A stretch of DNA of 64,000 nt from SAR86 cluster bacterium SAR86A (GCA_000252525.1 JH611156.1:578109-642108), one strand, 5' to 3'; positions 5,976 through 63,711 are shown, counted from the first letter of the stretch. Notes: generated by a model not told the origin, from the sequence alone. Numbers and translations: made by a program.

Positions 5976-6062
5976 ATTAATTACTCCTCTGTGATAATTT
6001 ATTTAATCAATACCCTTCTATGAAAAGCCTTTTAAGCCTAAAAGTCAAGCAAATAAAGGGTT

Positions 6063-47208: not shown

Positions 47209-48426
47209 TTAGCTCATATATTTACCAAGCTCATATCTAGCAACAGCTCTTCTATGAACTTCATCAGGTCCATCAGCTAATCTTAGTGTTCGCATGTGAG
47301 CATACATACTTGCAAGAGGTGTTAATTGAGAAACGCCTTCTCCACCATGAATTTGAATTGCTCGATCAATTATTTTTAGAGCGACATTTGGAGCAAAAAC
47401 TTTTATTTGTGCAATCTCACTTGCTGCAACTTTATTACCAACTGTATCCATTTTTACTGCTGCGTCCAATGTTAGAAATCTCGCAGCATTAAGCTCAATT
47501 CTTGATTCTGCAATATAATCAAAATTAGCCCCTAATTGAGCAAGATTTTTACCAAATGCTACTTTGTTGGGATCTATGCCTCTTTTACACATAAGCTCGA
47601 GTGCTACTTCGCCTGCACCAATTGCCCTCATACAATGATGAATTCTTCCAGGCCCTAATCTTCCTTGTGCGATTTCAAAACCTCTACCTTCTCCAAGTAA
47701 CAGGTTTTCTTTTGGAACTCTAACGTTTGTAAATTTCATATGAGCATGTCCATGTGGTGCATCATCATATCCGAACACATGCATCATTTTTTTTATTTCT
47801 ACTCCCTCAGTTTCCATTGGAACAAGTATCATTGAATGACGTTGATGTTTTGGATTATCTGGGTTTGTTACACACATAAAAATGATAATTTTACATCTTG
47901 GATCACCAGCACCTGAAGTCCACCACTTTTCACCATTTATGACATATTCATCCCCATCAAGAACTGCAGTTGCTTGCATGTTAGTTGCATCACTTGAGGC
48001 TGTTCCCGGCTCAGTCATACCAAAAGCAGATCTTATTTTTCCATCTAACAATGGTTGCAACCATTCCTCTTGATGTTGTTCGTTACCGTACCTTGCAATT
48101 ACTTCCATATTTCCAGTATCCGGAGCACTGCAGTTCATTGCCTCTGATGCTATATGACATTTACCCATCTGTTCAGCTAAATGAGCATACTCATAGTTAG
48201 TTAGGCCTGCACCAAACTCACTTTCTGGTAAGAATAAATTCCATAAACCTGAAGCTTTTGCTTTATCTTTTAGCTCATCAATTACTTCAGGATATTGATT
48301 CCATCTATCTTCGCCTTCCTTTATTTGATCATGAAAAACGTGTTCTTTTGGTTTTACTTCATCATTTATGAAGTTTTTTACTCTATCAAGTAAGTCGATA
48401 GCTTCTGGTCTTAATTCAGGCATCAT
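47209..48426 (-). CDS. Acyl-CoA dehydrogenase (FadE2/ACAD10-11-like)
   Basis: 405 aa; [22 protein letters not shown] and LADGPDEVH motifs. Confidence 0.85.
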
Positions 48427-48587: not shown

Positions 48588-49490
48588 ATGAAAATAAGTT
48601 CTTTTGATTTAAATTTATTCGTAATTTTAAATGCTATTTATACTGAAGGTAGTCTAACAAAAGCTGCTGAAGTGGTTGGTATTACTCAACCCGCTGTTAG
48701 TAATGCTTTGTCGCGTTTGAGAGAAAAATTTAATGATGATCTGTTTGTAAGAACAGGCTCAGGAATGATTCCAACGCAAAAGACTGAGAATATGATTACT
48801 GATGTTCAAAATGCGCTTACATTAATCCAACAAAGTGTGAATGAGCCAGATACGTTTGATCCAAAATCATCAAAAAGAAATTTTAAACTTTCTTTAGGAG
48901 ATGTTTCTGAGGGAAGAGTGCTGCCATTTATCATGAAAGAAATATACGCAGATTCTAAAAATATTTCTGTTGGAAGTTTCGCTTATCAAAGAAGTGATCA
49001 AGTTCATGCTCTTGCAACCAATAATTTAGACTTTGTTGTTGATCCAATAATACCTAGATCAGATGAAATTAATTCAGAAAAAGTCTTCGAAGATGATTTT
49101 GTAGTGATGTATCGTGAAGGTCACGATCTTTCTAAAATTAAAGATGTTTCTGTCGATGATATTCTTGATCAAAAACATCTTCATGTTTCTAATAGAAGAA
49201 GAGGTCTTCATTTAATAGACACAGAATTAGAAAAAATTGGCTACAGAAGAGAGGTAGCACTAAGGTGTCAGCACTTTCTCATAGCACCAACTATCATTCA
49301 GTCAACAGATTTGGTGCTCATGGGTACTAGAAGTTTTGCAAATAGAAATAATTTACCCTTTGCTGAAATTCCTCTAGATATTCCATCCATGGAATATTTC
49401 TTAATATGGCATAAAAATGACGAAGGTGACGGTGGTCATATATGGATGAAAGATTTAATCGTTAGAGCCTTCAAACACGCTCAAAGATAA
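48588..49490 (+). CDS. LysR-family transcriptional regulator
   Basis: 300 aa; N-terminal wHTH LTKAAEVVGITQPAVSNALSRLR. Divergent from the acyl-CoA dehydrogenase gene. Confidence 0.9.
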   Translation: MKISSFDLNLFVILNAIYTEGSLTKAAEVVGITQPAVSNALSRLREKFNDDLFVRTGSGMIPTQKTENMITDVQNALTLIQQSVNEPDTFDPKSSKRNFKLSLGDVSEGRVLPFIMKEIYADSKNISVGSFAYQRSDQVHALATNNLDFVVDPIIPRSDEINSEKVFEDDFVVMYREGHDLSKIKDVSVDDILDQKHLHVSNRRRGLHLIDTELEKIGYRREVALRCQHFLIAPTIIQSTDLVLMGTRSFANRNNLPFAEIPLDIPSMEYFLIWHKNDEGDGGHIWMKDLIVRAFKHAQR

Positions 49491-49496
49491 ATATAG

Positions 49497-50300
49497 TCAA
49501 CTTAGATTGTGACTTGATGTTTTCACAATCCCTCCATCTGAAGTTATTGTCTCACCAACGGTGTATGCTCCAGCTCTAGAACAAAGAAATATGGCTAAAC
49601 CAGCCATATCCTCTGGAGTGCCAACCCTATTCCTTGGATTTCTTTTTGCAATTTCGCTATAGTCATGATTTACAGCTGCACCAAGCATATTGCTTGGATA
49701 AGGACCAGGTGCAATAGCATTAACCAAAATATTTTCACTAACTAGCCTTGCAGCCAAGACTCTGGTCAGATGATGAACCGCTGCCTTTGAAGCTCCATAA
49801 GGATATGTTTCCATTGATGGAACATTTAAGCCATCAATAGAACCTATATTAATCACCCTGCTAGGATCATCTTCAGTAGCCCTTTCTGAGAGAAGCTCTC
49901 TAAGCTGCTGAGTTATAAAAAATATGGACTTAACGTTAAGGTCCATAACTTTATCCCACCCTTGTTCAGAAAAGCTTTCTAATGGCTCACCCCATGCTGC
50001 TCCTGCATTATTTATCAAAAAATCAATACCATCTTCATTTTCTTTCAAGACTTCTACAAAATCTTTTATGCCCTCCATCGAGCTTAAATCACATGGAATT
50101 GGAATACATTCATTTTGATATTTATCAGACAACTCTTTCGCTTTATCAATTAGAGCAGGAGCTTTTCTGGCAGAAATATATACTTTTACTCCGTTTGCAA
50201 GAAAACCAGCAGTAATCATTTCACCAATACCCCTTGAACCACCAGTAACAACTGCTATTTTATTTTCAATATTAAATAAATTTTCTATTTTCATATTCAA
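49497..50300 (-). CDS. Short-chain dehydrogenase/reductase (SDR)
   Basis: 267 aa; TGGSRGIG cofactor motif, NNAG, YGASKAAV catalytic YxxxK. Confidence 0.88.
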   Translation of the reverse strand: MNMKIENLFNIENKIAVVTGGSRGIGEMITAGFLANGVKVYISARKAPALIDKAKELSDKYQNECIPIPCDLSSMEGIKDFVEVLKENEDGIDFLINNAGAAWGEPLESFSEQGWDKVMDLNVKSIFFITQQLRELLSERATEDDPSRVINIGSIDGLNVPSMETYPYGASKAAVHHLTRVLAARLVSENILVNAIAPGPYPSNMLGAAVNHDYSEIAKRNPRNRVGTPEDMAGLAIFLCSRAGAYTVGETITSDGGIVKTSSHNLS

Positions 50301-51797: not shown

Positions 51798-52301
51798 ATG
51801 AATACCGATTTAATAAAATATATTACATTTTTTAGTTTGTTTATTGTTTGTATTAATATTAATGGGAAAATTATGCTTGATGAAAATGACAAATTAGTGT
51901 CACCCCTACCAAAACCTTATGATGGTTTAGTATATTCTGTCGACGACCTGAAGTCTTTTATCGTCTCTACTGTGAAATCAAACAAACAACCAATTATTAT
52001 ATTTGGTGCAAACTGGTGTCCTGACTGCAGAATATTTTCTGGAACAATGGACATACCAAAAATTAAATCATACATAGATGATCATTTTGCAATCTTGTAC
52101 ATAGATGTAAAAAGATATGAAATAAACATGCAGTTAATGGAAGAATTTGGAATTCCATCTGCAGAGGGGATTCCAAGAGTTTTAGTATTTGATAAAAGAA
52201 TGAATCTTATAAATAATTCAAATACAACTGAATGGAGAACTGCTAGGGAACGATCAAGTCAAGAAATTTTTGATTTCTTTCAAAACATGACTACTAATTA
52301 A
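51798..52301 (+). CDS. Secreted thioredoxin-fold protein
   Basis: 167 aa with a signal peptide and WCPDC active site. Confidence 0.7.
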   Translation: MNTDLIKYITFFSLFIVCININGKIMLDENDKLVSPLPKPYDGLVYSVDDLKSFIVSTVKSNKQPIIIFGANWCPDCRIFSGTMDIPKIKSYIDDHFAILYIDVKRYEINMQLMEEFGIPSAEGIPRVLVFDKRMNLINNSNTTEWRTARERSSQEIFDFFQNMTTN

Positions 52302-53568
52302 ATTGTCTACTTGCACTTGCAAATATTAGATAAAAAATTCCACCAAAAATTAAAACAAAGGAGCATATGTAAAAAATTGAGCTCCATGAATTAGTTATCT
52401 CAAGAATAAATCCTGCAACTATAGGTGCAAGAATTGCAGCAATCATTCCGATGCTTCCTGCAATTCCAACTAACGAACCAGTATATTTTGGACCAAGGTC
52501 TGCATGATTTACTCCAAATCCACCAGCACAAATACCTGAACAAATGTTAATTAAGCAGAGCAAAATTACAGCATTTAAGAGAGAGTCCTCAAAAGAAATT
52601 AAATATAAGAAAAATGCAGATCCAAAAAATCCTATTGAATTGACAGTTTTTCTAACCTTGATAACTTCATAACCTTTTTTAATTAAGTTATCAGCCAGAA
52701 AGCCTCCCAATATCAGCGCAATCATTGCGACTAAACACGGAATTACAATTGAATATATAAATGCATTTGAGCCTAAATCTATTCCCATACCGCCTTGAGA
52801 GACAGGAGCGTTAACATATTTTGGTAAATAAGATAAAAATGTGTAAAGAGACCAATTATTACAAAATGTAGCAACAGTGATTGCCATAAATGGCTTATTT
52901 TGTATAAGTTTGAGAAATGGTATCGATGAAGCAGAAGTTTTTGCAGGTGCCTCTGATTGTATTAATTCTAATTCGTTTTTAGATAAATTTTTATTGCTTT
53001 CAGGAAAAGATGTAACAGTTGTGTTCCAAAAAAAATACCAAAAAAAGCCTAAAGCTCCAAAGGTATAAAACACCCATTCCCATGAATAATTGGCTATGAT
53101 TAAGGCAGCAACTGCATATCCAAACAAAGTTCCAGCAGCAATTCCGCTATTTGTGAAACCTACAGCTCTAGTCCTTTCTTTAAAAGGTATCCATCTTGCA
53201 TATATAGCATGCCATGATGGGAAAGTTACGCCCTCTCCAAGCCCCATTAATATTCGAATTAAAATCAGCCACCACAATCCTTGATATGAGAAAAAAGGAG
53301 TAATTATTGTAAAAAATGACCATATTAATAGAGCATATCCGAGAACTTTTTTACCGCCATATCTGTCTGCTAAATATCCTCCAACTATCATAGTAATCAT
53401 ATATCCAAAGTAAAAAGATCCTAAAATAATTCCAACTTGAGATTCAGACCAGCCAAATTGCTCTTGCATTGGAATTATTGCTACAGAAATGTTTACTCTA
53501 TCGATGTAACAGATAAATACAGCTAAAAATGATAAAAAGATAATCTTAAATCGGTATGGAATAATCAT
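52294..53568 (-). CDS. MFS transporter, anion:cation symporter (ACS/SLC17-like) family
   Basis: 424 aa, 12 TM; N-terminal DRVNISVAI and GGYLADRYGGKK motifs. Start overlaps the P450 stop (ATGA). Confidence 0.8.
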   Translation of the reverse strand: MIIPYRFKIIFLSFLAVFICYIDRVNISVAIIPMQEQFGWSESQVGIILGSFYFGYMITMIVGGYLADRYGGKKVLGYALLIWSFFTIITPFFSYQGLWWLILIRILMGLGEGVTFPSWHAIYARWIPFKERTRAVGFTNSGIAAGTLFGYAVAALIIANYSWEWVFYTFGALGFFWYFFWNTTVTSFPESNKNLSKNELELIQSEAPAKTSASSIPFLKLIQNKPFMAITVATFCNNWSLYTFLSYLPKYVNAPVSQGGMGIDLGSNAFIYSIVIPCLVAMIALILGGFLADNLIKKGYEVIKVRKTVNSIGFFGSAFFLYLISFEDSLLNAVILLCLINICSGICAGGFGVNHADLGPKYTGSLVGIAGSIGMIAAILAPIVAGFILEITNSWSSIFYICSFVLIFGGIFYLIFASASRQFN

Positions 53569-54950
53569 TCAGGAGTAAATTTTATTGGCATCTCTTGAAT
53601 TGCATGTACAAAATTATTTGGTGCTACTTTCCAGTCACCATTCACTTCAAAATCACTAAAACGAGTCAAAAACTGTTTATAAAACTCTCTTAATTGCATC
53701 AATGCAACAGGCTTGCCTAAGCAAGTATGTCTTCCAATACCAAATGCTAAGTGTTTTTCAGCATTTTCTCTGAGAATATCAAACTTGTCTGGATCTTTGA
53801 AAATTTCTGGATCTCTGTTAGCAGCTCCATACCACAAAGAAATTTTTTCGTATGGGCCTATCATCTGTCCATTTATTTCAGTTTCCTCTAAAGATGTTCT
53901 TCGCATATGGATAACCGGTGATACACATCTTACAGTTTCATTTATAAAGTTTGGTAAGAGCTCATAATTCTCTAATAAAATTTCTTTTTGTTTTGGGTTG
54001 TCATGAAGTAACTTAATTCCGCCACTCATAGTATTTCGAGTTGTATCATTTCCTGCAAAAATTATTAGCAGCCAAGAACCATCAAGAAATTCATCTGAGA
54101 GTTGTTGACCTTCGATTTCTGCATTGGCAATTGCACTCAACAAATCGTCGGATGGATTTTCTCTTTTATTTTTTAAAATGAATCTCCCATATTCAAACAT
54201 TTCGTCAACCATTGCATTAAACATATCAACCATTGCTGGATCTGGTGTACTGTCAGTTTTTCCTTCGTTCTGTTCTTTTATCATTTCATAGGTAAAGTAT
54301 TGAGCCAATTCTAGAAATTCCATCCAAGAAACAAGTTTTTGCCTATCTGCTTCTGGTATGCCAAGGATCTCTGATAACGTAAATATTGGTAATTGCTGAG
54401 AGACTTGCTGTACTAGATTGCATTCACCCATAGGAGCGATGACATCTAATAATTCGCCAACTTTAACAGACACTTTTTTTTGTAATTCATCTACGTAACC
54501 AGATTTAAAAAATGGCATGTGTTCCTTACGAAGCCCAAGATGCATTTCTCCATCTAAATTTAGCATATGGTCGATGGTAGATTTAAAAAGTTTTGGGTGT
54601 CTATTTTCTTCAGTGCCTAAAGTTAATAAATTTCCAGTAGAGTATTGTGAGGAGAAGATCTTAGGATTCATAGATACATGTTTTATGTCGTTATATGAAG
54701 TTAAGACCCAGTAACCAGGCTCAGGATCTGTTGGCATTGGGTCATGGAAGAATACTGGAGATTTCTCTCTAAGTTCTTTATATAAACTAATTGGTTGTCC
54801 TTTAGTAAATAAGTCAAGGTCGTTCAAAGAGCCTGAAGGCTTATGAGGATATGAAATATTGTGTTTTGGATGATTAATCTTATTACTTAAAATTTCATCA
54901 GATAATATGTATCCTGGGTTTGGATTAGTCACCTCCACCTCCTCCAGCAT
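53565..54950 (-). CDS. Cytochrome P450 monooxygenase (I-helix resembles the CYP153/CYP125 omega-hydroxylase type)
   Basis: Heme loop FGIGRHTCLG, I-helix AGNDTTRN, ExxR (ETVR). Start is ambiguous: ATG at 54950, or GTG at 54932 which has AGGAGG-N5. The tracked TTG at 55031 is unlikely. Confidence 0.9.
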   Translation of the reverse strand: MLEEVEVTNPNPGYILSDEILSNKINHPKHNISYPHKPSGSLNDLDLFTKGQPISLYKELREKSPVFFHDPMPTDPEPGYWVLTSYNDIKHVSMNPKIFSSQYSTGNLLTLGTEENRHPKLFKSTIDHMLNLDGEMHLGLRKEHMPFFKSGYVDELQKKVSVKVGELLDVIAPMGECNLVQQVSQQLPIFTLSEILGIPEADRQKLVSWMEFLELAQYFTYEMIKEQNEGKTDSTPDPAMVDMFNAMVDEMFEYGRFILKNKRENPSDDLLSAIANAEIEGQQLSDEFLDGSWLLIIFAGNDTTRNTMSGGIKLLHDNPKQKEILLENYELLPNFINETVRCVSPVIHMRRTSLEETEINGQMIGPYEKISLWYGAANRDPEIFKDPDKFDILRENAEKHLAFGIGRHTCLGKPVALMQLREFYKQFLTRFSDFEVNGDWKVAPNNFVHAIQEMPIKFTPE

Positions 54951-55548
54951 CTCCACCTGCAACTGTTCCATCTGAGGAAGGATTTGGATGAGTAAGATAT
55001 ATGCTAGACATAAACGCTGTACCGTCTCCAAGAGCTGCAGTTATTTCTTTGAGATTTAGTTTTTCACCCAAATCAGAGTAAGGCTGCACATCTCCAGAGT
55101 CTTTATCTACAATAAGTGCATCTTTTTTTGATACTAAAATAATATCTCCAGAAATTATTACTAAGAAGTATTGATTAAAATTGAACATAGATTTTTTGAA
55201 TCTTTTTCGAAATTTAATCTTGCCAGTCTTCCATGACATTTTTGATATTTCTCTTGAGGAAGAAAGAAAGTACATGTATCCATCATGTGAACTTGGTATA
55301 AATGGAATCATTGAGCTATGAAGATAATCTTGATAATGAGACCATAAAAAATCTCCATTATCACTTTTAAAACAATGAACCATTTTAGAGCTCCATGACG
55401 AGCTAAAAACAATAATATAATCTTCGAATTGTCCTATGATGTTTGGCTTGTAACCTGGAGAAATGTCTCCAACCCATACTGGTTTATTTTTAACTAGGTC
55501 GTATTTTGCAATAGATCCTTTTTTGCCAAAAATTGCTACTTTATCCAT
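54925..55548 (-). CDS. Hypothetical cytoplasmic protein with PQQ/BamB-like beta-propeller-type repeats and a Gly-rich C-terminal tail
   Basis: 207 aa; no signal peptide. A motif recurs four times at about 40-50 aa spacing (YDLVKNKPVW, FKSDNGDFLW, MSWKTGKIKF, VDKDSGDVQP). Tail is AGGDAGGGGGD. Confidence 0.55.
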   Translation of the reverse strand: MDKVAIFGKKGSIAKYDLVKNKPVWVGDISPGYKPNIIGQFEDYIIVFSSSWSSKMVHCFKSDNGDFLWSHYQDYLHSSMIPFIPSSHDGYMYFLSSSREISKMSWKTGKIKFRKRFKKSMFNFNQYFLVIISGDIILVSKKDALIVDKDSGDVQPYSDLGEKLNLKEITAALGDGTAFMSSIYLTHPNPSSDGTVAGGDAGGGGGD

Positions 55549-55565
55549 GAGTGCAATTATATATG

Positions 55566-55602
55566 TTTCAGATATGAGGAGTCGAACTCCTCATATCTGA
55601 AA
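55566..55602 (-). terminator. Perfect 17-bp hairpin between the TBDR gene and the downstream genes (partial terminator or RNA-stabilising stem)
   Basis: TTTCAGATATGAGGAGT-CGA-ACTCCTCATATCTGAAA. No strong T-tract follows on the minus strand. Confidence 0.5.
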
Positions 55603-55607
55603 TAAAA

Positions 55608-57983
55608 TTAGAAGCTATAGGTATATCTCAGCGCTATAGTTCTTGGAGGTATCCACTGCATCCAGTTTCTTGGTCTCCATGATGTGTCATCAACTGCATA
55701 AATATATGCCTCAGTTCTCTTATCAGTTAAGTTATCTATTGATAGTTGAAGCATAGAATTTTCACTCAAGTCTAATCCTAGATTAAAGTTTAGCTTAGTA
55801 TAATCAGGTGAACTTGAATTAGGATTCTCAGCAAAAGTATTAAAGCTATCTCCGTAGTAATTTACGTCCAGTCTTGCATATGTAGGATATGACATTATGG
55901 TCGTGTCATAGACAAGACCAAGATTCCACTGGGTTTCTACAGTATTTGGAAGTCTATCTCCAGCAGAAGCACCTAGAGAATCAATATCAATTGAAGTTTC
56001 TGCAGTCATAGAGCTTCCTGCAAAATCTAAGGAAACTGAATCATTAATAGCGTAAGTAAAGTCGACCTCCCAACCAGAAGTCTCTGCTTTACCTCCATTA
56101 AAGTTATATCTCCAACCACAACCAGGTGTGACTTGGATTATTATTCCGTCCCAATCAACATCAAAATAAGTAACATTAGCCGTATAGTTTTCACCTCTAG
56201 CTTTTACTCCGAATTCAGTTGTCTCAGCCTCATCAGAATTGAATCTTCTTGAGAAGTTTGCTTGTGCTGCTTCATCACTGCTACAGAATGGAGGAAGTGG
56301 TGCCTGATTTCCACCAGGTCTATACCCTGCTGCTTGAGTTGCATACAAGGTCAAGTCCTCGTTTACTAAATAACTAACAGCATATTTCATTCTAGTATCA
56401 GACTCTGAACCAGATAATTCAGCACAGTCAGTTCCTGCCGGATCAGTACCGTCACAGCCAGTGCTATCCATATAAAAAATACCGTATTGATATGTTTTTG
56501 ATGCATCTTCAATTTCATAATCTCTAATGCCTAATGTAAGCGTTAATTTGTCATTTACGTTGTAGTCAAACTGACCATAAAGAGATGTCTCTTCTTGCTC
56601 ATTAAATTCAGTATATGAAGCATAATACAAGTAAGGATAGCCTAAATGATCCGAACAAAATGGTGGACAATATGCTGTAGCATCATAAACAGCCGGATCA
56701 ACTCCAGCAGCAATCGAAGTAACATAATCTAGCCAATATGCATCGACTGCATATTGAGTTTGTGAAATTGAATTAGGTTGTTCCTCAAATTTATAGTTAT
56801 AGTAACCAATAGTCCACTCAAATTTTCCAGGTTTTGAAACTAGTCTCAATTCTGTAGTATCTTCATAATATTTGTCACCATCCACAATAAGCGGTGCAGG
56901 AACATAATCATCCATATCAATTCTAGCCCAGTCAGTCACAGCATCTTCTTCTACTGTTCTATCAGAGATAATTAAATTTGCATCGAAAGCACCAAAATCA
57001 TATTTAATATTTGCTATTAGTGTTTCTCTTGTAATATCTTCAGACTCATCTGCTGCTAAAGCATGAGCATATTTTGGGTCATAGTTTGTAAGTACCGAGC
57101 TTCCATTAGGATAATCAGCTTCAGTTGCTGCAAATCCCGATATCGCACTCAAACGCGAACATGTTGGATCACCGTCCCAGTTATACCACCAACTTGATGC
57201 TTGAGGACAGCCTTCAACATAAACGTCAGCACTACCAGGCTTGCTCTGACCTGGTTCTAAAATACCATATGCTTTGTTATTAAAATTAACATACCTCAAA
57301 CTTCCAGTTAATTTGCCCCCATTATTGAATCCTAGTGTGATCATAAGTTGAGAATCATCTTCTTCACCAACAGTATTGCCTGTCTGAATATTTTTATAGA
57401 TACCTGGAGAAACAAGCTGCGAATATACAGCTCTAACAGCAAGACTGTCAGTTAGAGGCATGTTGTACATCATTTCGATGCTAGTCTCAGGATCATTAGC
57501 TTTAACTTTATCACCATAACCAAGCCTAATTTTTCCATAAGCTGCGCTTGAATCTGGTTTATTAGTTATGTATCTGATTGTTCCACCAATAGCATTAGAT
57601 CCATAGAGTGTGCCCTGTGGCCCTCTAAGTACTTCAATTCTTTCAATATCAAATAAACTCATTAGTGAGCCGTTTATTTCATCAATATAAGTAGAAGAAG
57701 TTCCTGATGATCTTTGCGAAGTAGATGTATTTAGCCCCCTGAAAGTATAGTAATTTGATCCGCCAGGTGTCGACACACCAGCAATTGATCGCAAATAGTC
57801 TTCAGGATTAGTTATACCTCTCTCTTCTATTGTAGCTTCTGTAATTACAGATATGTTCATAGGTATTTCTTGAACAGTTTCAGCTTTCTTATTTGCAGTA
57901 ACAATCACTTCTTCAACTTCTTGAGAAATCAAGACGAATGGAGCCAAAATTAGTGCGCATAAAATTGTCTTCAAATTTTTCAT
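55608..57983 (-). CDS. TonB-dependent outer-membrane receptor
   Basis: 791 aa; signal peptide, TonB box/plug (EEVIVTANKK...IPMNISVIT), C-terminal beta-barrel ending RYTYSF. Confidence 0.92.
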   Translation of the reverse strand: MKNLKTILCALILAPFVLISQEVEEVIVTANKKAETVQEIPMNISVITEATIEERGITNPEDYLRSIAGVSTPGGSNYYTFRGLNTSTSQRSSGTSSTYIDEINGSLMSLFDIERIEVLRGPQGTLYGSNAIGGTIRYITNKPDSSAAYGKIRLGYGDKVKANDPETSIEMMYNMPLTDSLAVRAVYSQLVSPGIYKNIQTGNTVGEEDDSQLMITLGFNNGGKLTGSLRYVNFNNKAYGILEPGQSKPGSADVYVEGCPQASSWWYNWDGDPTCSRLSAISGFAATEADYPNGSSVLTNYDPKYAHALAADESEDITRETLIANIKYDFGAFDANLIISDRTVEEDAVTDWARIDMDDYVPAPLIVDGDKYYEDTTELRLVSKPGKFEWTIGYYNYKFEEQPNSISQTQYAVDAYWLDYVTSIAAGVDPAVYDATAYCPPFCSDHLGYPYLYYASYTEFNEQEETSLYGQFDYNVNDKLTLTLGIRDYEIEDASKTYQYGIFYMDSTGCDGTDPAGTDCAELSGSESDTRMKYAVSYLVNEDLTLYATQAAGYRPGGNQAPLPPFCSSDEAAQANFSRRFNSDEAETTEFGVKARGENYTANVTYFDVDWDGIIIQVTPGCGWRYNFNGGKAETSGWEVDFTYAINDSVSLDFAGSSMTAETSIDIDSLGASAGDRLPNTVETQWNLGLVYDTTIMSYPTYARLDVNYYGDSFNTFAENPNSSSPDYTKLNFNLGLDLSENSMLQLSIDNLTDKRTEAYIYAVDDTSWRPRNWMQWIPPRTIALRYTYSF

Positions 57984-58942: not shown

Positions 58943-59581
58943 TCAATTTTCATTCGCCTGGACTGAATTTAGGTCTTCAGATGAACTGATTTGGGTTTGT
59001 ATCTCAAGAATGGTTTGATTTAGCTGATTTTTATAATTATTAAGAGCTTGTACAGTATCATCAAGTAACATTAATTGAGTATCAATTGAGCTGATATTCA
59101 TTCTTATTGAATTTAAATCTTCCTCAGATAGTCCTAGATTTTCAATATTCTGCATATTTGTTTCAATGCTATTTCGCATCTTTAATAAATTTGTTTGATT
59201 GTTATCAACATCTGTTTGTAGTTTTTGAAGTATTTCTTCTATTTTAATGGCTTGATCCGATAATTTTTGAATATTAACTTTATTTCTTTTATTACTTAAA
59301 TCCCAAAGTTTCCTAACTTCCTTATCTAAAAATTGAATTGAAGATGAAATATCAGTAATCGTGTCATTATTTGTCTCATCAACAATATTAATTTGTTCCT
59401 CAATGAGATTAAGTCTTTCATCGATGGTGTTTAATAATGATTTGTCGTTTTCAGTTTCAAAGGTTTGCCATATCCATAAAAATAAAATACTCATAAAAAC
59501 CAATACATATATAAAACCTACCAAAAGACCACCATTATTTGCTCTTTTCAAATATTCAGGAAATTTTCTTTCAACTTTCAT
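58943..59581 (-). CDS. Membrane-anchored coiled-coil protein
   Basis: 212 aa; a single N-terminal TM (LLVGFIYVLVFMSILFLWIW) followed by about 160 aa of heptad-like N/Q/E/L-rich sequence. Confidence 0.5.
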   Translation of the reverse strand: MKVERKFPEYLKRANNGGLLVGFIYVLVFMSILFLWIWQTFETENDKSLLNTIDERLNLIEEQINIVDETNNDTITDISSSIQFLDKEVRKLWDLSNKRNKVNIQKLSDQAIKIEEILQKLQTDVDNNQTNLLKMRNSIETNMQNIENLGLSEEDLNSIRMNISSIDTQLMLLDDTVQALNNYKNQLNQTILEIQTQISSSEDLNSVQANEN

Positions 59582-59661
59582 ATCTAGTTTTTTATAATTA
59601 AAAATATTAATTATTTAGCTTATAATGGTTATCTATTTTACCTTAACTTAAAGACGTATTT

Positions 59662-60774
59662 ATGAATTTAGACTTTTCAGATGATCAAAAGTTCCTTCAA
59701 GAGGAAGCTAGAAAGTTCCTAGAGAAAGAAAATGCACTTTCTCGCAACAGGTCTGTTTTAGAAAATAATGCAAATGTTGATGTTGAGCTTTGGAACAAAA
59801 TTGTTGAATTGGGATGGACAGGTATTAGAATCCCTGAAGAATATAGTGGATTAGGTCTTGGCCATTTAGAGCTTTGTGTAATTGCTGAAGAATTAGGGAG
59901 ATTTTTAGCACCTGTGCCATTTTCATCATCAGTTTATTTATTTACTGAGGCCATAATTAATTATGCTAATGACGATATTAAAAAAGAAATACTGCCTAAA
60001 CTAGTGTCAGGCGAAGTTATAGGAACACTTGCAGTTGCTGAAGATTTACAGGCTCCTACTGCTGAAAATATTACATTACAAAGTGATAACAATATTTTAA
60101 ATGGAAAAAAGATAGCTGTACCTGATGCCGAAATTGCTACGCATGCAATTGTGGTTGCAAAAACATCTTCAGGGATCTCTCTTCAGCTTGTTGACCTAAA
60201 TGCTGAAGGTGTAAAAATCGAAAAACAAGAAAATATTGATGAGAGCAGAGGTTATTTTTCTATCTTATTTGAAAATTCTCCAAGCAAATTGATAGGTGAT
60301 GAAACTGGCGGCTGGGACTTATATGAAGCTTTGATGAATCAAGCTGCCGTATTGTTTGGTTATGAACAAATAGGTGGATCTCAAGCAGCCTTAGATATGG
60401 CTATTAATTATTCTAAAGAGAGGTATGCGTTTGGAAGACAAATAGGATCATTTCAAGCAATAAAACATAAACTAGCTGATATGTATATTGCCTTAACACT
60501 TGCAAAATCTAATTGTTATTACGCTGCATGGGCGCTTTCGACTAACTCAGCTGACTTACCTTCGGCGTCTGCTACAGCTAGAGTAAGCGCAACAAAAGCA
60601 TATCAACTCTGCTCAAAAGAAAATATTCAAACTCATGGTGGTAATGGTTTTACATGGGAATATGATTGTCATATGTTCTATAGGCGATCAAAACTATTAT
60701 CTTTAAATATAGGCTCACTAAGTAACTGGAGAGAAAAACTGGTTACCAGCCTTGAACAATCAAATATTAATTAG
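59662..60774 (+). CDS. Acyl-CoA dehydrogenase family protein lacking both catalytic-base positions (beta-like subunit)
   Basis: 370 aa ACAD fold (HGGNGFTWEY). Where MCAD has YEGT this protein has LNIGS, and where IVD has LERL it has MNQAAV, so no catalytic Glu is present. Confidence 0.8.
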   Translation: MNLDFSDDQKFLQEEARKFLEKENALSRNRSVLENNANVDVELWNKIVELGWTGIRIPEEYSGLGLGHLELCVIAEELGRFLAPVPFSSSVYLFTEAIINYANDDIKKEILPKLVSGEVIGTLAVAEDLQAPTAENITLQSDNNILNGKKIAVPDAEIATHAIVVAKTSSGISLQLVDLNAEGVKIEKQENIDESRGYFSILFENSPSKLIGDETGGWDLYEALMNQAAVLFGYEQIGGSQAALDMAINYSKERYAFGRQIGSFQAIKHKLADMYIALTLAKSNCYYAAWALSTNSADLPSASATARVSATKAYQLCSKENIQTHGGNGFTWEYDCHMFYRRSKLLSLNIGSLSNWREKLVTSLEQSNIN

Positions 60775-60782
60775 GAAAAATT

Positions 60783-62003
60783 ATGGATTTTAACGACACC
60801 CCCGAACAAGCTAAATTTAGAAAAACATGTAGAGATTGGCTAGAAAAAAATGCACAGCTTAAAGATAGTTCACCATCTGAGTCTAATTTCGCTAACAAAG
60901 ACATAATTAAAGAAGCGAAAGCATGGCAAAAAAAGAAATATGATGCAGGTTGGGCCATGCTCCACTGGCCTAAAGAATATGGAGGTATTGGCGCATCTCC
61001 AATAGAAAGAATTATTTGGGCTAATGAAGAATCAAAGTTCAATGTACCAAAAGGTATTTTTGAAATTGGGTTAGGTATGTGCGGACCAGTAATGATGCAG
61101 TATGCTTCTGAGGAACAAAAAGAAAGATACTTACCTCCGATGGCTGAGGGTAAGGAAATTTGGTGTCAATTATTCTCAGAACCTTCAGCTGGATCTGACG
61201 TTGCTGGCCTAAGAAGTAAAGCAGTTCAAGATGGGGATAAATGGATAATAAATGGTCAAAAAGTTTGGACATCTGGTGCACACTTCTCTGATTATGGAAT
61301 TCTTGTAGTTAGGCATGATCCAAATCTTGAAAAGCACAAAGGTTTAACATTCTTTTTTGTTGATATGAAATCTCCAGGAATTGAAGTAAAGCCAATAAAA
61401 CAAATTACAGGTGGATCAAGTTTTAATGAGGTTTATTTCACAGATGTAGAAATACCTGATTCACAAAGACTTGGAGAAATTGGTGACGGCTGGAAAGTGG
61501 CGATTACAACCCTTATGAATGAAAGGTTGGCTGTTGGAGACGCGGATGGATGTGATGTTGAGGATGCATTCAAATGGGCTAAAACACAAGATAATCAGGG
61601 TGAACCCCTCCTTAATGATAAAGCTGCAAGAGAATCTATTGCTGATTGGTACTGCGAAGCAAGTGGACTTAAAAATACTAAACTCAGAACAATGTCTGCT
61701 TTATCAAAAGGCGATACACCAGGACCAGAAGCATCTATTACAAAAATCGTTAGTGCTGGAAAACTTCAAGATATAGGAAATTTTGGAATTGATTCAATGG
61801 ATATGACTGGTATGTTAAAAACTGATGATCCAGATATAAGAAGATTCCAAAATGCATGGCTTGGTGCTCCCGGACTAAGAATTGCTGGTGGAACTGATGA
61901 AATTCTGAGAAATATTATTGCTGAGAGAGTTTTGGGCCTTCCACAAGATCCTAGGGCAGACAAAGGAGTTGCATACAAAGATATTCCATCAGGAAAGTCT
62001 TAA
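60783..62003 (+). CDS. Acyl-CoA dehydrogenase family protein with IVD-type catalytic Glu (alpha-like subunit)
   Basis: 406 aa; CQLFSEPSAGSDVAG, WTSGAHFSD, MNERLAVG (Glu at the IVD/LCAD position) and IAGGTDEILRN motifs. Confidence 0.85.
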   Translation: MDFNDTPEQAKFRKTCRDWLEKNAQLKDSSPSESNFANKDIIKEAKAWQKKKYDAGWAMLHWPKEYGGIGASPIERIIWANEESKFNVPKGIFEIGLGMCGPVMMQYASEEQKERYLPPMAEGKEIWCQLFSEPSAGSDVAGLRSKAVQDGDKWIINGQKVWTSGAHFSDYGILVVRHDPNLEKHKGLTFFFVDMKSPGIEVKPIKQITGGSSFNEVYFTDVEIPDSQRLGEIGDGWKVAITTLMNERLAVGDADGCDVEDAFKWAKTQDNQGEPLLNDKAARESIADWYCEASGLKNTKLRTMSALSKGDTPGPEASITKIVSAGKLQDIGNFGIDSMDMTGMLKTDDPDIRRFQNAWLGAPGLRIAGGTDEILRNIIAERVLGLPQDPRADKGVAYKDIPSGKS

Positions 62004-62004
62004 G

Positions 62005-63711
62005 TTATCTAAAAATAGCTAGGAATTTAAGAAATTCTGTATTGCCTCCTTGCACAACTATTTCTCCAGATGAAATAGATGAAACAGGGTTTTTTAGTCC
62101 AGTAAGAACTCTTTTTAATTCAATTTCTTGTGTTAGTACCTCTAGATCACAATTATTTTGCGCTTCATTAGAGATAACAGCAACACCATTCCTAAGAGTA
62201 ATACTTCTTACTAATCCTGAACTAAAATTAAAGCATACCTTGTATAGAGACCCATCATGATCTTCAGGGTTAAACCTTACGGAAAGAACATTAAATAGGG
62301 TGTCAATCGATAAATTATTTAAAAAGGTGTCATCAATATTCATTAAATTAGTCAGCTCAAATTCATCATTAAGCTCTAAGGCAGATGATAAAAAATAATT
62401 CCTTTTGTTTGGATTGGAAGATTTAGCACCTTCATGTATAAGTGCTTTTTGTCTCAAAGTTTTAACCTCTGAATTAAAGAGGTCTAGCGAAATAAGATAA
62501 TCACTTAATTCAAGAGCCCATTGCATATCTTCTTTATCCACAGCTAGTCTAAGCTCTTTTATCAATTCATTTTCTCCGCCAGCTAATTTTGATATCCTTT
62601 TTGCTTTCTCTTTTCTTGATAAAGGATCTAATTCAGCGGGATTTCCATTAAACCATCCTAAATATCCATTAAATATGCTTTTCACGGACCACCTAACTGT
62701 TCCATAGAATTCGTATAAAAAAGGAGAGCTTGACAGGTTTTGAGGTAACTCTATCATTTCAGATATTTCATCAGGATAATAACCTGCATTCATAAGTCTA
62801 ATTGTTTGATCGTGAATATATTGGATTGCATCTCTGTATGTAATAAAAATATTGTTTATTTCATTTTTTCCAATAACAGGTCTTGTATGACTGGGAAATA
62901 AATATTCAGGATAAAATGATTTCATTAGGTCAAGACTTTCTATCCATCCTGTTACGTCGCGATGCGTGGTGCCTCTAATGGTATATAGATTAGGGAACGT
63001 TTTATAAATATTATCTCCAGGCATGAGCGATTTATGTTTCGGAAGCCACACAAATATTTGATCATTTGTTTCTCCTGGAGCATGATAAAGTTCAATTTCA
63101 ATACCTGAAATTGTAATTTTTAATTCATCACTAAATGTAAGGTCTGGTTTTACATAACCATTTGGAGATTTTGAGACATTTAAACGGGGCCCTATTCCAA
63201 CATTTATGAGCTCTTCTTCTGGTAAAAAAGTTCCAAACATTCTCGCACTTCTTTGAGTGATGATTGGGTTTAAAATCCCAATAATTCTTTGAACGTAATA
63301 ATCAGTATCCTCATGAGCAATTATTTGAGGTTTATAATCTTGTATATCTAAATAATAAGCAGCACCAAAGGTATGATCACCATGATTATGGGTGTAAATG
63401 ATTGCTTTGACAGGATTTGAATTCTTTTTTCTAAATAGTTCATATATTTTTTCAGCATCATATCTACTATCAGCAGCATCAATGATGATATTCCCATCTT
63501 GACCCTCTACCATGATTGAATTTGCAATACCAAAACCAATAGCAAAATGAATTTTTCCACCAGGGGTATCAAATGTAATTACCTCTTGGTTAAATTCATC
63601 TGAATGTTTTATGAGTTTTTCTACTTCAGATGTAGTTGGAACATTAAACTCAAGGTTTTCTTTTGAGCAGGAAGTTAATATTAAAAAAGTTAATATTGCG
63701 TATTTATACAA
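62005..63711 (-). CDS. Alkyl/aryl-sulfatase lipoprotein (MBL-fold, SdsA1/BDS1/YjcS family)
   Basis: 568 aa; lipobox LILTSC, MBL motif HNHGDH, dimerisation-domain motif GYLGWFNGNPAELDPL, SCP2-like C-terminus. Confidence 0.8.
   Translation of the reverse strand: MYKYAILTFLILTSCSKENLEFNVPTTSEVEKLIKHSDEFNQEVITFDTPGGKIHFAIGFGIANSIMVEGQDGNIIIDAADSRYDAEKIYELFRKKNSNPVKAIIYTHNHGDHTFGAAYYLDIQDYKPQIIAHEDTDYYVQRIIGILNPIITQRSARMFGTFLPEEELINVGIGPRLNVSKSPNGYVKPDLTFSDELKITISGIEIELYHAPGETNDQIFVWLPKHKSLMPGDNIYKTFPNLYTIRGTTHRDVTGWIESLDLMKSFYPEYLFPSHTRPVIGKNEINNIFITYRDAIQYIHDQTIRLMNAGYYPDEISEMIELPQNLSSSPFLYEFYGTVRWSVKSIFNGYLGWFNGNPAELDPLSRKEKAKRISKLAGGENELIKELRLAVDKEDMQWALELSDYLISLDLFNSEVKTLRQKALIHEGAKSSNPNKRNYFLSSALELNDEFELTNLMNIDDTFLNNLSIDTLFNVLSVRFNPEDHDGSLYKVCFNFSSGLVRSITLRNGVAVISNEAQNNCDLEVLTQEIELKRVLTGLKNPVSSISSGEIVVQGGNTEFLKFLAIFR

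What the first reader, a model, noticed from the sequence alone, without database searches (positions are those of the whole stretch)
59662..62003. Adjacent acyl-CoA dehydrogenase genes look like a heteromeric alpha/beta ACAD (ChsE/FadE26-27 type)
The two ACAD-fold genes are 8 nt apart. The first (370 aa) has no acidic residue at either known catalytic-base position: LNIGS where MCAD has YEGT, and MNQAAV where IVD/LCAD have LERL. The second (406 aa) has Glu at the IVD-type position (MNERLAVG) and Gly at the MCAD position (IAGGTDE). This one-active, one-inactive pairing, together with the roughly 400/370 aa sizes, is the signature of the alpha2beta2 ACADs. Those enzymes are described for steroid and bile-acid side-chain degradation: M. 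tuberculosis ChsE1-E2 and ChsE4-E5 (FadE26-FadE27), and proteobacterial Scd enzymes. They accommodate bulky or branched acyl-CoAs. Such a pair in a streamlined marine gammaproteobacterium, next to a CYP125/153-like P450 locus, points to a bulky lipid substrate.
Basis: partly seen in the sequence, partly recalled or inferred. Interest (0 to 1): 0.55.

Follow-up and report, generated by a model that had tools for sequence, protein, structure and literature searches.

The report
Two-subunit acyl-CoA dehydrogenase in SAR86
Two neighbouring genes in a marine SAR86 bacterium encode the catalytic and helper halves of a two-subunit fat-oxidising enzyme of a known design; the same gene pair is common in many bacteria that are not steroid degraders, so it is a sound but fairly ordinary find.

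Summary
ORFs 59662-60774 (370 aa, P1) and 60783-62003 (406 aa, P2) are full acyl-CoA dehydrogenase (ACAD) folds 8 nt apart. P1 has no acidic residue at either known base position (A228, I350). P2 has Glu247 at the IVD/ChsE4 position.

The alpha2beta2 architecture is well supported:
- The two proteins have complementary FAD half-sites. P2 keeps the isoalloxazine side, and P1 keeps only the ADP-ribose side.
- Their best PDB sequence hits are the alpha and beta chains of 6wy8 and 4x28.
- The beta-then-alpha gene pair recurs in 74 of 80 species loci.
- Natural beta-alpha fusion proteins exist.

The steroid / bulky-lipid reading is not supported:
- The pair is only about 30% identical to ChsE4-ChsE5 and misses the PimCD and IpdE2 family cut-offs.
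- It has Ala where both structurally solved steroid alpha subunits have the "key glycine".
- No steroid or other beta-oxidation gene lies in the 64 kb window.
- It belongs to a large unnamed family (45-60% identity) found in SAR11, Bradyrhizobium, Caulobacter, Hyphomonas and others, usually beside housekeeping genes or generic beta-oxidation genes.
- Linkage to the P450 is seen only in the closest SAR86 relative.

Verdict: a new member of a known kind. The substrate is unknown, most likely an ordinary fatty-acyl-type CoA ester.

The parts
59598..59626 (+). Sigma-70-like promoter match (TTAAAA-17-TATAAT, 10 of 12) in the 80-nt gap upstream of the first gene. This is weak evidence only.
   Evidence: The scan found 7 sites against 11.2 expected in shuffles of this AT-rich region, so the match is not statistically meaningful. 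Sequence shown.
59662..60774 (+). P1, the beta (non-catalytic) ACAD subunit, 370 aa. It has no catalytic base (A228, I350). The isoalloxazine-side FAD residues are lost (A126, P132, A152, P154). The ADP-ribose-side residues are retained (R254, F257, G258, Q265, Q323, G326, G327).
   Evidence: AF2 model: pLDDT 91, pTM 0.91, canonical ACAD fold.
60772..60782 (+). Junction between the genes: TAG stop codon (60772-60774), AGGA Shine-Dalgarno overlapping the stop (60773-60776), and a 6-nt spacer before the ATG. This fits co-transcription and coupled translation.
   Evidence: sequence. No terminator-like site on the + strand between or after the genes.
60783..62003 (+). P2, the alpha (catalytic) ACAD subunit, 406 aa. 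The catalytic base is Glu247. The isoalloxazine-side residues are retained (S132, E133, G137, S138, D139, W162, T163, S164). The ADP-side motifs are lost (Q269, Q272, K280, D337, D340, M341). It has Ala368 at the steroid 'key glycine' position and a family-specific conserved C-terminal tail (LGLP..R391.D393.K394..F398).
   Evidence: AF2 model: pLDDT 71. Top four Foldseek hits are alpha chains of 4x28 and 6wy8/6wy9.

Best explanation
The two genes form a two-gene operon. It encodes the beta subunit (P1, first gene) and the alpha subunit (P2, second gene) of an FAD-dependent acyl-CoA dehydrogenase built on the alpha2beta2 plan.

In each alpha-beta pair only one of the two potential FAD and active sites is complete.
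- P2 supplies the isoalloxazine pocket (S132, S138, W162-T-S164), the acyl-CoA pocket, and Glu247. Glu247 abstracts the alpha-proton of the thioester while the beta-hydride goes to FAD.
- P1 supplies the ADP-ribose-binding half of that same FAD site across the subunit interface (R254, F257, Q265, Q323, G326-G327).
- The reciprocal site (P1 pocket plus P2 ADP side) is degenerate on both halves.

Neither protein alone should therefore bind FAD properly, and the heteromer should carry one FAD per alpha-beta pair. The reduced enzyme presumably passes electrons to electron-transfer flavoprotein, as other ACADs do.

The pair belongs to a large, widely distributed family with no specific name or characterisation in the resources I searched. 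Its members are in beta-then-alpha order, are sometimes fused, and sometimes occur as beta-alpha-alpha'. The family is distinct from the ChsE, Ipd and PimCD families. The substrate is not known. Gene neighbourhoods elsewhere suggest an ordinary fatty-acyl-type CoA ester (long-chain or branched) in general lipid beta-oxidation rather than a steroid.

Shown here: the sequence features, conservation, synteny and fusions. Inferred: the physical heterotetramer, the FAD stoichiometry, the electron acceptor and the substrate class.
For: 1. Complementary half-sites. P2, like ChsE4 and Tcur3483, keeps MCAD T136/S142/W166/T168 equivalents and loses R281/F284/Q292/Q349/G352/G353 equivalents. P1, like ChsE5 and Tcur3481, does the reverse. 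PMC11153573 and PMC8399759 describe exactly this division of labour for solved alpha2beta2 ACADs.

2. Family-wide conservation.
- Beta family, 137 representatives each under 50% identical to the others: D/E at the two base columns in 0/137 and 1/137; R254 in 136/137; Q265 in 136/137; G326 in 131/137.
- Alpha family, 79 members: E247 in 79/79; S132, E133, P134, G137, D139 and W162 invariant.

3. Best PDB sequence hits. P2 matches Tcur3483 (173 bits) and ChsE4 (164 bits), against 121 bits for the best homomeric ACAD. P1's best hit is Tcur3481 at 125 bits.

4. Best NCBIfam hits are subunits of two-subunit ACADs: pimC_large for P2, and IpdE2 (plus pimD_small) for P1.

5. NJ bootstrap: alpha-type clade 200/200, beta-type clade 199/200.

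6. Synteny. An alpha gene lies directly downstream of beta on the same strand in 74 of 80 species loci, with a median gap of about 22 nt. Three loci end at a contig edge, and three have alpha elsewhere in the locus.

7. Rosetta-stone fusions. Ten of the top 150 representatives are 774-803 aa fusions. Their halves are 35-45% identical to P1 and 29-50% to P2. Nine have the N-beta/C-alpha order also reported for CasC; the tenth, P0224, is reversed.

8. Internal control. The single-gene ACAD at 47209-48426 in the same window keeps both FAD half-sites and has an acidic residue at the MCAD-376 position.

9. Non-steroid context. The family occurs in SAR11, Parvibaculaceae and a gammaproteobacterial MAG among housekeeping genes. 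In Bradyrhizobiaceae, Porticoccaceae and Novosphingobium it sits beside acyl-CoA synthetases, thiolase, enoyl-CoA hydratases, an SDR and an aldehyde dehydrogenase.
Against: - No physical evidence for a complex exists, and no multimer model could be run.
- P1's margin over homomeric ACADs in the PDB sequence search is tiny: 125 bits against 121.6 for an IVD, and ChsE5 scores only 83 bits.
- The confident P1 model matches human SCAD (TM 0.92) as well as Tcur3481 (TM 0.90), so the fold does not discriminate subunit type.
- The P2 model is mediocre (pLDDT 71), so its Foldseek ranking carries little weight.
- The clade test used only four homomeric outgroups.
- My list of MCAD FAD-contact residues comes from my own knowledge of the MCAD structure, not from a paper I could open (searches failed).
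- The substrate inference rests on gene neighbourhoods in other phyla. In SAR86 itself the operon has no informative partners.
- SAR86 is a predicted steroid degrader, and a CYP125-like P450 lies 4.6 kb away.
Confidence: 0.78

Rival explanations
1. The pair is a steroid or bile-acid side-chain (or other bulky isoprenoid) acyl-CoA dehydrogenase of the ChsE4-ChsE5 / Scd type. It would work downstream of the nearby TonB-dependent receptor and CYP125-like P450, which would import the substrate and omega-oxidise it.
For: - The architecture is the same as in steroid ACADs.
- The P450 at 53565-55031(-) scores best against a CYP125 ancestor, followed by terminal hydroxylases CYP153, CYP124 and CYP142.
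- P2 has Pro89 at the helix-E position (ChsE4 Pro89 / LCAD Pro132) that PMC11153573 links to an enlarged cavity.
- SAR86 genomes were predicted to encode the 9,10-seco steroid pathway (PMC4810484).
- In Novosphingobium resinovorum pSA2 a family member follows a TetR regulator and a TonB-dependent receptor, inside a cluster rich in DUF35/thiolase and MaoC genes.
Against: - Identity to ChsE4/ChsE5 and Tcur3483/Tcur3481 is 27-32%. Identity to family members in organisms not listed as steroid degraders (SAR11, Bradyrhizobium, Caulobacter) is 45-60%.
- The glycine mutated in 6wy9 (G363A) is Ala368 in P2. The family distribution is A62/E16/S1, never Gly.
- The helix-E proline is present in only 41 of 79 family members.
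- No steroid ring, hydratase, aldolase or CoA-ligase genes lie in the 64 kb window.
- The P450 is on the opposite strand with intervening genes. It is syntenic only in the closest SAR86 species, and only 2 of the other 77 loci have any P450 nearby.
Confidence: 0.1
2. The pair is a PimCD-like two-subunit dehydrogenase specific for medium- or long-chain dicarboxylyl-CoA esters such as pimeloyl- to dodecanedioyl-CoA.
For: - P2's best NCBIfam hit is TIGR03204 pimC_large at 226 bits, far above its next hit at 137 bits. P1 also hits TIGR03203 pimD_small at 115 bits.
- PimCD-like pairs in beta-proteobacteria have dicarboxylate-specific fitness phenotypes (PMC12543098).
Against: - Both scores are far below the equivalog cut-offs of 624 and 653 bits.
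- Rhodopseudomonas palustris carries a member of the P1/P2 family that also fails these cut-offs (171 and 221-227 bits). The family is therefore distinct from PimCD.
- The gene order is small subunit then large, the opposite of pimC-pimD (my recollection of the pim operon).
- No pim-type neighbours lie in the window.
Confidence: 0.07
3. The two genes do not form a complex. P2 is an ordinary homomeric ACAD. P1 is an independent ACAD-fold protein with a non-dehydrogenase role, a different catalytic residue, or no role at all (a decaying paralogue).
For: - No physical data exist.
- ACAD-fold proteins without the canonical glutamate and with other chemistries are known, for example 3-sulfinopropionyl-CoA desulfinase. 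P1 hits NCBIfam NF042439 weakly at 81 bits.
- The P1 model looks like a normal ACAD monomer.
Against: - P2 itself lacks the R281/F284/Q292/Q349/G352/G353 equivalents that a homodimer needs to hold the ADP part of FAD. P1 lacks the isoalloxazine side.
- P1 is under strong purifying selection precisely at the ADP-side residues, so it is not decaying.
- The 98%-identity cluster of P1 holds 527 member sequences.
- All 77 informative loci carry both genes.
- Repeated natural fusions are hard to explain without a physical partnership.
Confidence: 0.05

Closest known systems
ChsE4-ChsE5 (FadE26-FadE27) of Mycobacterium tuberculosis, PDB 4x28
   Same: - Two adjacent ACAD genes of about 400 and 370 aa.
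- The catalytic Glu247 sits at the same aligned position in the alpha subunit.
- The beta subunit has no base.
- The complementary loss of FAD half-sites follows the same pattern.
   Different: - Identity is only 30% (alpha) and 27% (beta).
- The gene order here is beta then alpha.
- P2 has Ala368 where ChsE4 has Gly.
- P2 has a conserved C-terminal tail that ChsE4 lacks.
- The pair is not in a cholesterol catabolic cluster.
Tcur3481-Tcur3483 of Thermomonospora curvata, PDB 6wy8 and 6wy9
   Same: - It is the best PDB sequence hit for both P1 (125 bits) and P2 (173 bits).
- It has the same alpha/beta division of motifs.
   Different: - Identity is 31-32%.
- P2 naturally carries the Ala that the 6wy9 G363A variant introduces.
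- It is actinobacterial and sits in a steroid context, whereas P1/P2 is a stand-alone operon in SAR86.
PimC-PimD pimeloyl-CoA dehydrogenase (TIGR03204 / TIGR03203)
   Same: - It is a two-subunit ACAD with a large catalytic and a small subunit, acting on a non-steroid substrate.
- pimC_large is P2's best NCBIfam model.
   Different: - Scores of 226 and 115 bits fall far below the cut-offs of 624 and 653.
- An R. palustris member of the P1/P2 family also fails these cut-offs, so the families are separate.
- The gene order is reversed, and there is no pim operon context.
CasC of Rhodococcus jostii RHA1 (fused two-domain steroid ACAD)
   Same: CasC has an N-terminal beta-like domain needed for FAD binding and a C-terminal domain carrying the catalytic Glu (PMC8399759). 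Nine of the ten fusion proteins related to P1/P2 have the same order.
   Different: - P1 and P2 are separate polypeptides.
- I did not compare the fusions found here with the CasC sequence itself.
- CasC acts on cholyl-CoA-type substrates.
IpdE1-IpdE2 (steroid C/D-ring side-chain ACAD; NCBIfam NF050027 IpdE2)
   Same: IpdE2 is P1's best NCBIfam hit at 150 bits. It is also a small beta-type subunit.
   Different: The score is far below the cut-off of 450, and only the C-terminal part aligns (residues 223-353). There are no ipd or steroid neighbours.

Membership tests
alpha2beta2 heteromeric ACAD (architecture class of ChsE4-ChsE5, ChsE1-ChsE2, IpdE1-E2, PimCD) | Two ACAD-fold genes that are adjacent and co-oriented | tested here: met
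   The gap is 8 nt and a Shine-Dalgarno sequence overlaps the stop codon. The pairing is conserved in 74 of 80 species loci.
alpha2beta2 heteromeric ACAD (architecture class of ChsE4-ChsE5, ChsE1-ChsE2, IpdE1-E2, PimCD) | Only one subunit carries the catalytic glutamate | tested here: met
   P2 has E247 (79/79 in its family). P1 has A228 and I350, and its family has D/E at these columns in 0/137 and 1/137.
alpha2beta2 heteromeric ACAD (architecture class of ChsE4-ChsE5, ChsE1-ChsE2, IpdE1-E2, PimCD) | One FAD site per alpha-beta pair: alpha binds the isoalloxazine and beta binds the ADP-ribose | tested here: met
   This was tested at the sequence level only. The motif loss and retention are complementary and identical in pattern to ChsE4/ChsE5 and Tcur3483/Tcur3481. 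The definition comes from PMC11153573 and PMC8399759.
alpha2beta2 heteromeric ACAD (architecture class of ChsE4-ChsE5, ChsE1-ChsE2, IpdE1-E2, PimCD) | Each subunit groups with known alpha or beta subunits rather than with homomeric ACADs | tested here: met
   NJ bootstrap support is 200/200 for the alpha clade and 199/200 for the beta clade, with only four homomeric outgroups. PDB hit ranking agrees. Fold comparison alone is inconclusive.
alpha2beta2 heteromeric ACAD (architecture class of ChsE4-ChsE5, ChsE1-ChsE2, IpdE1-E2, PimCD) | A physical alpha2beta2 complex, two FAD per tetramer, and activity only when both subunits are present | not testable with these tools
   This needs co-expression, sizing of the complex and FAD quantification. 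No multimer prediction was available. Natural fusions give indirect support.
Steroid side-chain ACADs (ChsE4-E5, ChsE1-E2, Tcur3481-3483, Scd1AB) | Encoded within a steroid or bile-acid catabolic gene cluster | tested here: not met
   The window holds peptide-transporter components, Lon, ClpXP, HtpG, DNA replication genes, DsbD, a P450, a TonB-dependent receptor, an alkylsulfatase and similar genes. It has no Rieske KshA, KstD, meta-cleavage, MaoC hydratase, Ltp2 or steroid CoA-ligase genes.
Steroid side-chain ACADs (ChsE4-E5, ChsE1-E2, Tcur3481-3483, Scd1AB) | The conserved 'key glycine' in the alpha subunit (Tcur3483 G363; title of Stirling et al. 2020, cited in PMC8399759) | tested here: not met
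   P2 has Ala368. The family distribution is A62/E16/S1. ChsE4 and Tcur3483 both have Gly, and 6wy9 is the G363A variant. I could not read the paper itself.
Steroid side-chain ACADs (ChsE4-E5, ChsE1-E2, Tcur3481-3483, Scd1AB) | Orthology-level similarity to a characterised member | tested here: not met
   Identity to the four PDB chains is 27-32%.
Steroid side-chain ACADs (ChsE4-E5, ChsE1-E2, Tcur3481-3483, Scd1AB) | Dehydrogenates steroid-CoA thioesters | not testable with these tools
   This needs an enzyme assay.
PimCD pimeloyl-CoA dehydrogenase (TIGR03204 / TIGR03203) | Score above the NCBIfam equivalog cut-offs | tested here: not met
   P2 scores 226 bits against a cut-off of 623.85. P1 scores 115 bits against 652.7.
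IpdE1-IpdE2 (NF050027 IpdE2) | Score above the NCBIfam equivalog cut-off | tested here: not met
   P1 scores 150 bits against a cut-off of 450, and the alignment is partial.

The most novel reading that the evidence does not exclude
P1/P2 represents a very large alpha2beta2 ACAD family that I found neither named nor characterised. It is carried as a stand-alone, housekeeping-like operon by some of the most abundant marine heterotrophs (SAR86 and SAR11) and by many soil Alphaproteobacteria. If its substrate is a common non-steroid lipid, such as long-chain, methyl-branched or isoprenoid acyl-CoA, then the heterotetrameric ACAD design is a mainstream beta-oxidation solution. Reviews currently describe it as a steroid-pathway peculiarity. 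The beta-alpha-alpha' arrangement in Bradyrhizobiaceae further suggests that one beta subunit may serve alternative alpha subunits.
Probability: 0.45. Interest if true: 0.5.

Novelty: new member of a known kind. Interest (0 to 1): 0.3.

Why it matters
Reviews present alpha2beta2 ACADs as an unusual feature of steroid side-chain catabolism, in contrast to the homotetramers of ordinary beta-oxidation (PMC6678751; PMC8399759).

This locus belongs to a distinct family of such enzymes with thousands of members. More than 8000 hits were returned for each subunit profile. Of the representative clusters, 3129 scored better than E 1e-30 against P1, although that count also includes ordinary ACADs.

The family is present in SAR86 and SAR11 and is annotated only as "acyl-CoA dehydrogenase". 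Automatic annotation therefore counts an inactive subunit as a separate enzyme, which inflates the apparent ACAD repertoire. The same correction was made for M. tuberculosis in the paper titled "Shrinking the FadE proteome".

Finding the substrate would say something about which lipids these abundant oligotrophs oxidise. For this particular window, the practical result is a corrected annotation (beta subunit plus alpha subunit of one enzyme) and removal of the unsupported steroid inference.

Tried and rejected
- Exact-protein look-ups to annotate the rest of the window failed three times: one used a wrong stop-end coordinate, and two proteins were simply not on record. I annotated with Pfam scans instead.
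- Primary papers could not be opened: Yang 2015, Wipperman 2013, Gadbery 2020, Thomas & Sampson 2013 and Kim 1993. A search for MCAD FAD-contact residues gave nothing useful. The definitions therefore come from open-access papers that describe these works. The MCAD contact list comes from my own knowledge.
- Fold comparison does not discriminate subunit type. The confident P1 model matches homomeric SCAD as well as Tcur3481. The P2 model is only pLDDT 71, so its top-four ranking of alpha chains is weak support.
- Clustering of neighbouring genes over 80 loci found no universally conserved partner. High-GC loci also produced spurious antisense ORFs.
- I tested a functional link to the adjacent alkylsulfatase, P450, MFS transporter and TonB-dependent receptor by tblastn across the loci. 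Synteny holds only in the nearest SAR86 species, so I rejected it as evidence.
- A TauE/SafE permease directly follows the pair in two SAR11 loci and lies one gene further downstream in one Parvibaculaceae locus. This hinted at a sulfonate or desulfinase link. It occurs in only 3 of 80 loci, and the desulfinase model scores only 81-101 bits, so I did not pursue it.
- The first tree script timed out and the second crashed. My first bootstrap sets were mis-specified. I corrected them.
- The promoter and terminator scan is uninformative in this AT-rich DNA.
- Supplements of PMC4810484 list SAR86 genomes as predicted steroid degraders but give no ACAD assignments that I could use.


Full report
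**Observation.** P1 is 59662-60774 (+, 370 aa) and P2 is 60783-62003 (+, 406 aa). They are separated by 8 nt, read as TAG GAAAAATT ATG. An AGGA overlaps the stop codon 6 nt before the second start. Both match all three Pfam ACAD domains. The middle domain of P1 only just passes, at 33.7 bits against a cut-off of 33.3. The operon is flanked on both sides by genes on the minus strand. A promoter-like match lies in the 80-nt upstream gap, and no terminator-like site separates the genes. That scan is not informative in DNA this AT-rich.

**Source organism.** P2 is encoded identically on Tara Oceans contigs and in assembly GCA_902578705.1. The nearest genome loci are SAR86 single-cell and metagenome assemblies at 66-81% identity for P1. 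GC content is about 32%.

**Catalytic residues.** I rebuilt reference sequences from HMMER alignments against the PDB: ChsE4 (4x28_A), ChsE5 (4x28_D), Tcur3483 and Tcur3481 (6wy8). I also confirmed that my human MCAD sequence is 100% identical to 1ege_A. The alignment shows the following.
- P1 has A228 at the IVD/LCAD base position (MCAD T255) and I350 at MCAD E376.
- P2 has E247 at the IVD position, aligned with ChsE4 E247, and G369 at MCAD E376.
- PDB entry 1egd, the "T255E, E376G mutant" of MCAD, confirms that these are the two alternative base positions.

**Complementary FAD half-sites.** The two proteins carry mirror-image FAD half-sites.

| Role (MCAD residues) | P2 | ChsE4 | P1 | ChsE5 |
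|---|---|---|---|---|
| Isoalloxazine side (T136, S142, W166, T168) | S132, S138, W162, S164 | S130, T136, W160, S162 | A126, P132, A152, P154 | D126, P133, Q151, G153 |
| ADP side, from the partner subunit (R281, F284, Q292, Q349, G352, G353) | Q269, Q272, K280, D337, D340, M341 | T271, A274, E283, E343, G346, T347 | R254, F257, Q265, Q323, G326, G327 | R251, F254, Q262, H327, G330, G331 |

P2 keeps the isoalloxazine side and has lost the ADP side. P1 has lost the isoalloxazine side and keeps the ADP side. Open-access papers describe the solved alpha2beta2 ACADs in exactly these terms. The alpha subunit binds the isoalloxazine and carries the Glu and the substrate site. The beta subunit binds the ADP-ribose. 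One FAD sits at the interface of each heterodimer (PMC11153573; PMC8399759). The assignment of these MCAD residues to FAD contacts is from my own knowledge of the MCAD structure, because I could not open the primary papers.

An internal control lies in the same window. The single-gene ACAD at 47209-48426(-) keeps both half-sites and has Asp at the MCAD-376 position.

**Conservation.** The pattern holds across both families.
- Beta family: in 137 representatives, each under 50% identical to the others, no sequence has Asp or Glu at the A228 column and one has it at the I350 column. R254 and Q265 are each present in 136/137, and G326 in 131/137.
- Alpha family: in 79 members taken from 80 species loci, E247 is invariant, as are S132, E133, P134, G137, D139 and W162.

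P1 is therefore a conserved, selected helper subunit and not a decaying paralogue.

**Partnership.** Four lines of evidence point to a physical pairing.
- A degenerate-pattern scan of one genome per GTDB species returned 80 loci. In 74 of them an alpha gene (43-61% identical to P2) lies directly downstream of beta on the same strand, with a median spacing of about 22 nt. Three loci end at a contig edge, and three have alpha elsewhere in the same locus. Eleven, mostly Bradyrhizobiaceae, have beta-alpha-alpha'.
- Ten of the top 150 representatives are single polypeptides of 774-803 aa. Nine have an N-terminal half 35-45% identical to P1 and a C-terminal half 36-50% identical to P2. The tenth, P0224, has the reverse order, with halves 36% identical to P1 and 29% to P2. 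The beta-alpha order matches that reported for CasC of Rhodococcus jostii.
- In a neighbour-joining (NJ) tree, all alpha-type sequences, including ChsE4 and Tcur3483, form one clade in 200/200 bootstraps. All beta-type sequences, including ChsE5 and Tcur3481, form another in 199/200. Only four homomeric outgroups were available.
- P2's best PDB hits are Tcur3483 (173 bits) and ChsE4 (164 bits), against 121 bits for the best homomeric ACAD. P1's best hit is Tcur3481 (125 bits), by a small margin over IVD at 121.6 bits.

**Structure prediction added little.** The P1 model is confident (pLDDT 91, pTM 0.91). It matches human SCAD (TM 0.92) as well as it matches Tcur3481 (TM 0.90). The P2 model is mediocre (pLDDT 71). 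Its top four Foldseek hits are alpha chains of 4x28, 6wy8 and 6wy9, but the margins are small. No multimer model could be run.

**Which family?** It is none of the named ones.
- NCBIfam places P2 nearest pimC_large (226 bits, cut-off 624). It places P1 nearest IpdE2 (150 bits, cut-off 450) and also pimD_small (115 bits, cut-off 653). These are subunits of two-subunit ACADs, which fits the architecture, but the scores are far below equivalog level.
- A Rhodopseudomonas palustris member of the P1/P2 family also fails the Pim cut-offs (171 and 221-227 bits). The family is therefore separate from PimCD.
- Identity to ChsE4/ChsE5 and Tcur3483/Tcur3481 is 27-32%. Identity to family members in other classes and phyla is 45-60%.
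- The glycine mutated in 6wy9 ("G363A variant") is the subject of a paper on a "key glycine" in steroid-degrading ACADs, cited in PMC8399759. It is Gly in both solved steroid alpha subunits. It is Ala368 in P2, and A62/E16/S1 in the family, never Gly.

**Context and substrate.** The 64 kb window carries no steroid-ring gene, CoA ligase, hydratase or thiolase. The P450 at 53565-55031(-) is indeed of the CYP125/CYP153 group. It lies 4.6 kb away on the other strand. It is syntenic with the pair only in the closest SAR86 species, L008. Only 2 of the other 77 loci have any P450 nearby. The abutting alkylsulfatase is likewise syntenic only in L008.

Elsewhere the pair sits in two kinds of setting.
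- In SAR11, a Parvibaculaceae genome and a gammaproteobacterial MAG it lies among housekeeping genes (RpoZ, Dus, TauE, GlnE, NadE, Band7).
- In other lineages it lies beside generic beta-oxidation genes. These are an acyl-CoA synthetase, a FadD4-like ligase, a thiolase, enoyl-CoA hydratases and an SDR in Bradyrhizobiaceae. They are two AMP-ligases, an aldehyde dehydrogenase and hydratases in Porticoccaceae. They are a TetR regulator, a TonB-dependent receptor and two hydratases on Novosphingobium resinovorum pSA2.

This suggests a fatty-acyl-type substrate in general lipid oxidation, but it is inference from other lineages. SAR86 genomes were predicted to carry the 9,10-seco steroid pathway (PMC4810484). 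P2 also has Pro89 at the helix-E position linked to an enlarged cavity in ChsE4 and LCAD, although only 41 of 79 family members share it.

**Verdict.** The architectural interpretation, a heteromeric alpha/beta ACAD with one active site per pair, is well supported at the sequence, phylogenetic, synteny and gene-fusion levels. It awaits only biochemical proof. The [quoted passage not shown] part is not supported: three defining features of steroid ACADs were tested and not met.

The pair is a new member of a known kind. It belongs to a large, widespread family with no specific name or characterisation in the resources I searched (more than 8000 hits per subunit profile), annotated only as "acyl-CoA dehydrogenase". 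Interest is modest. It lies in the breadth of this non-steroid alpha2beta2 family and its presence in SAR86 and SAR11, not in the locus itself.

Noticed in passing
window 47209-48426 (-), with 48588-49490 (+) and 49497-50300 (-): A third, single-gene ACAD of 405 aa keeps both FAD half-sites and has Asp rather than Glu at the MCAD-376 position (motif LADGPDE). From memory this resembles ACAD10/11-type enzymes. It lies next to a LysR regulator and an SDR. I used it only as an internal control.
   Followed up: partly
window 52294-57983 (-): A minus-strand run of four genes: a TonB-dependent receptor (55608-57983), a 207-aa ORF with no Pfam hit (54925-55548), a CYP125/153-group P450 (53565-55031) and an MFS transporter (52294-53568). 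This looks like an uptake and hydroxylation module for a hydrophobic substrate. The longest P450 ORF (TTG start, 488 aa) overlaps the upstream ORF by 107 nt. Gene calls on identical contigs use a later start (461-470 aa). P450 and MFS are kept together in the nearest SAR86 species, but the receptor is not.
   Followed up: partly
window 62005-63711 (-): An SdsA1-type alkylsulfatase (Lactamase_B + Alkyl_sulf_dimr + Alkyl_sulf_C). It converges on the ACAD operon with only 1 nt between the two stop codons, which leaves no room for a terminator hairpin between them. Synteny with the pair is limited to the closest SAR86 relative.
   Followed up: partly
loci L011, L014, L016, L020, L022, L025, L033, L035, L047, L065 (Bradyrhizobiaceae and relatives): One beta gene is followed by two alpha paralogues (beta-alpha-alpha', each 51-56% identical to P2). 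One helper subunit may therefore pair with alternative catalytic subunits.
   Followed up: no
proteins P0122, P0123, P0130, P0131, P0139, P0150, P0158, P0162, P0171 (beta-alpha) and P0224 (alpha-beta); possibly locus L031 186-2396: Natural single-chain fusions of the two subunits occur in both orders. In L031 (Thermoanaerobaculia) a single 736-aa ORF spans both matches.
   Followed up: partly
window 58943-59581 (-): A 212-aa predicted membrane-anchored coiled-coil protein with no Pfam hit is divergently transcribed from the ACAD operon. It is the only neighbour conserved across all SAR86 loci examined (L008, L009, L010; 36-66% identity).
   Followed up: no
P2 residues 384-406 (window about 61932-62000): The alpha family has a conserved C-terminal tail (LGLP..R391.D393.K394..F398) that extends beyond the end of ChsE4 and Tcur3483. 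The AF2 model has low confidence there. It may wrap onto the partner subunit.
   Followed up: no
loci L017 10428-11276, L019 6064-6915, L015 11523-12359: A TauE/SafE-family permease directly follows the pair in two SAR11 loci and lies one gene further downstream in a Parvibaculaceae genome. Only 3 of 80 loci show this, and its significance is unknown.
   Followed up: no
locus L088 (Novosphingobium resinovorum plasmid pSA2) 18699-22426; locus L089 (Sulfitobacter plasmid) 6035-8238: Both plasmids carry a second, more divergent small + large ACAD pair (309 + 380 aa and 352 + 382 aa). It lies in the same region as DUF35 (OB-fold) and thiolase genes, directly adjacent on pSA2 and about 8 kb away on the Sulfitobacter plasmid. 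In the NJ tree these pairs also fall into the beta and alpha clades, so heteromeric ACADs appear to be common in proteobacterial catabolic islands.
   Followed up: partly
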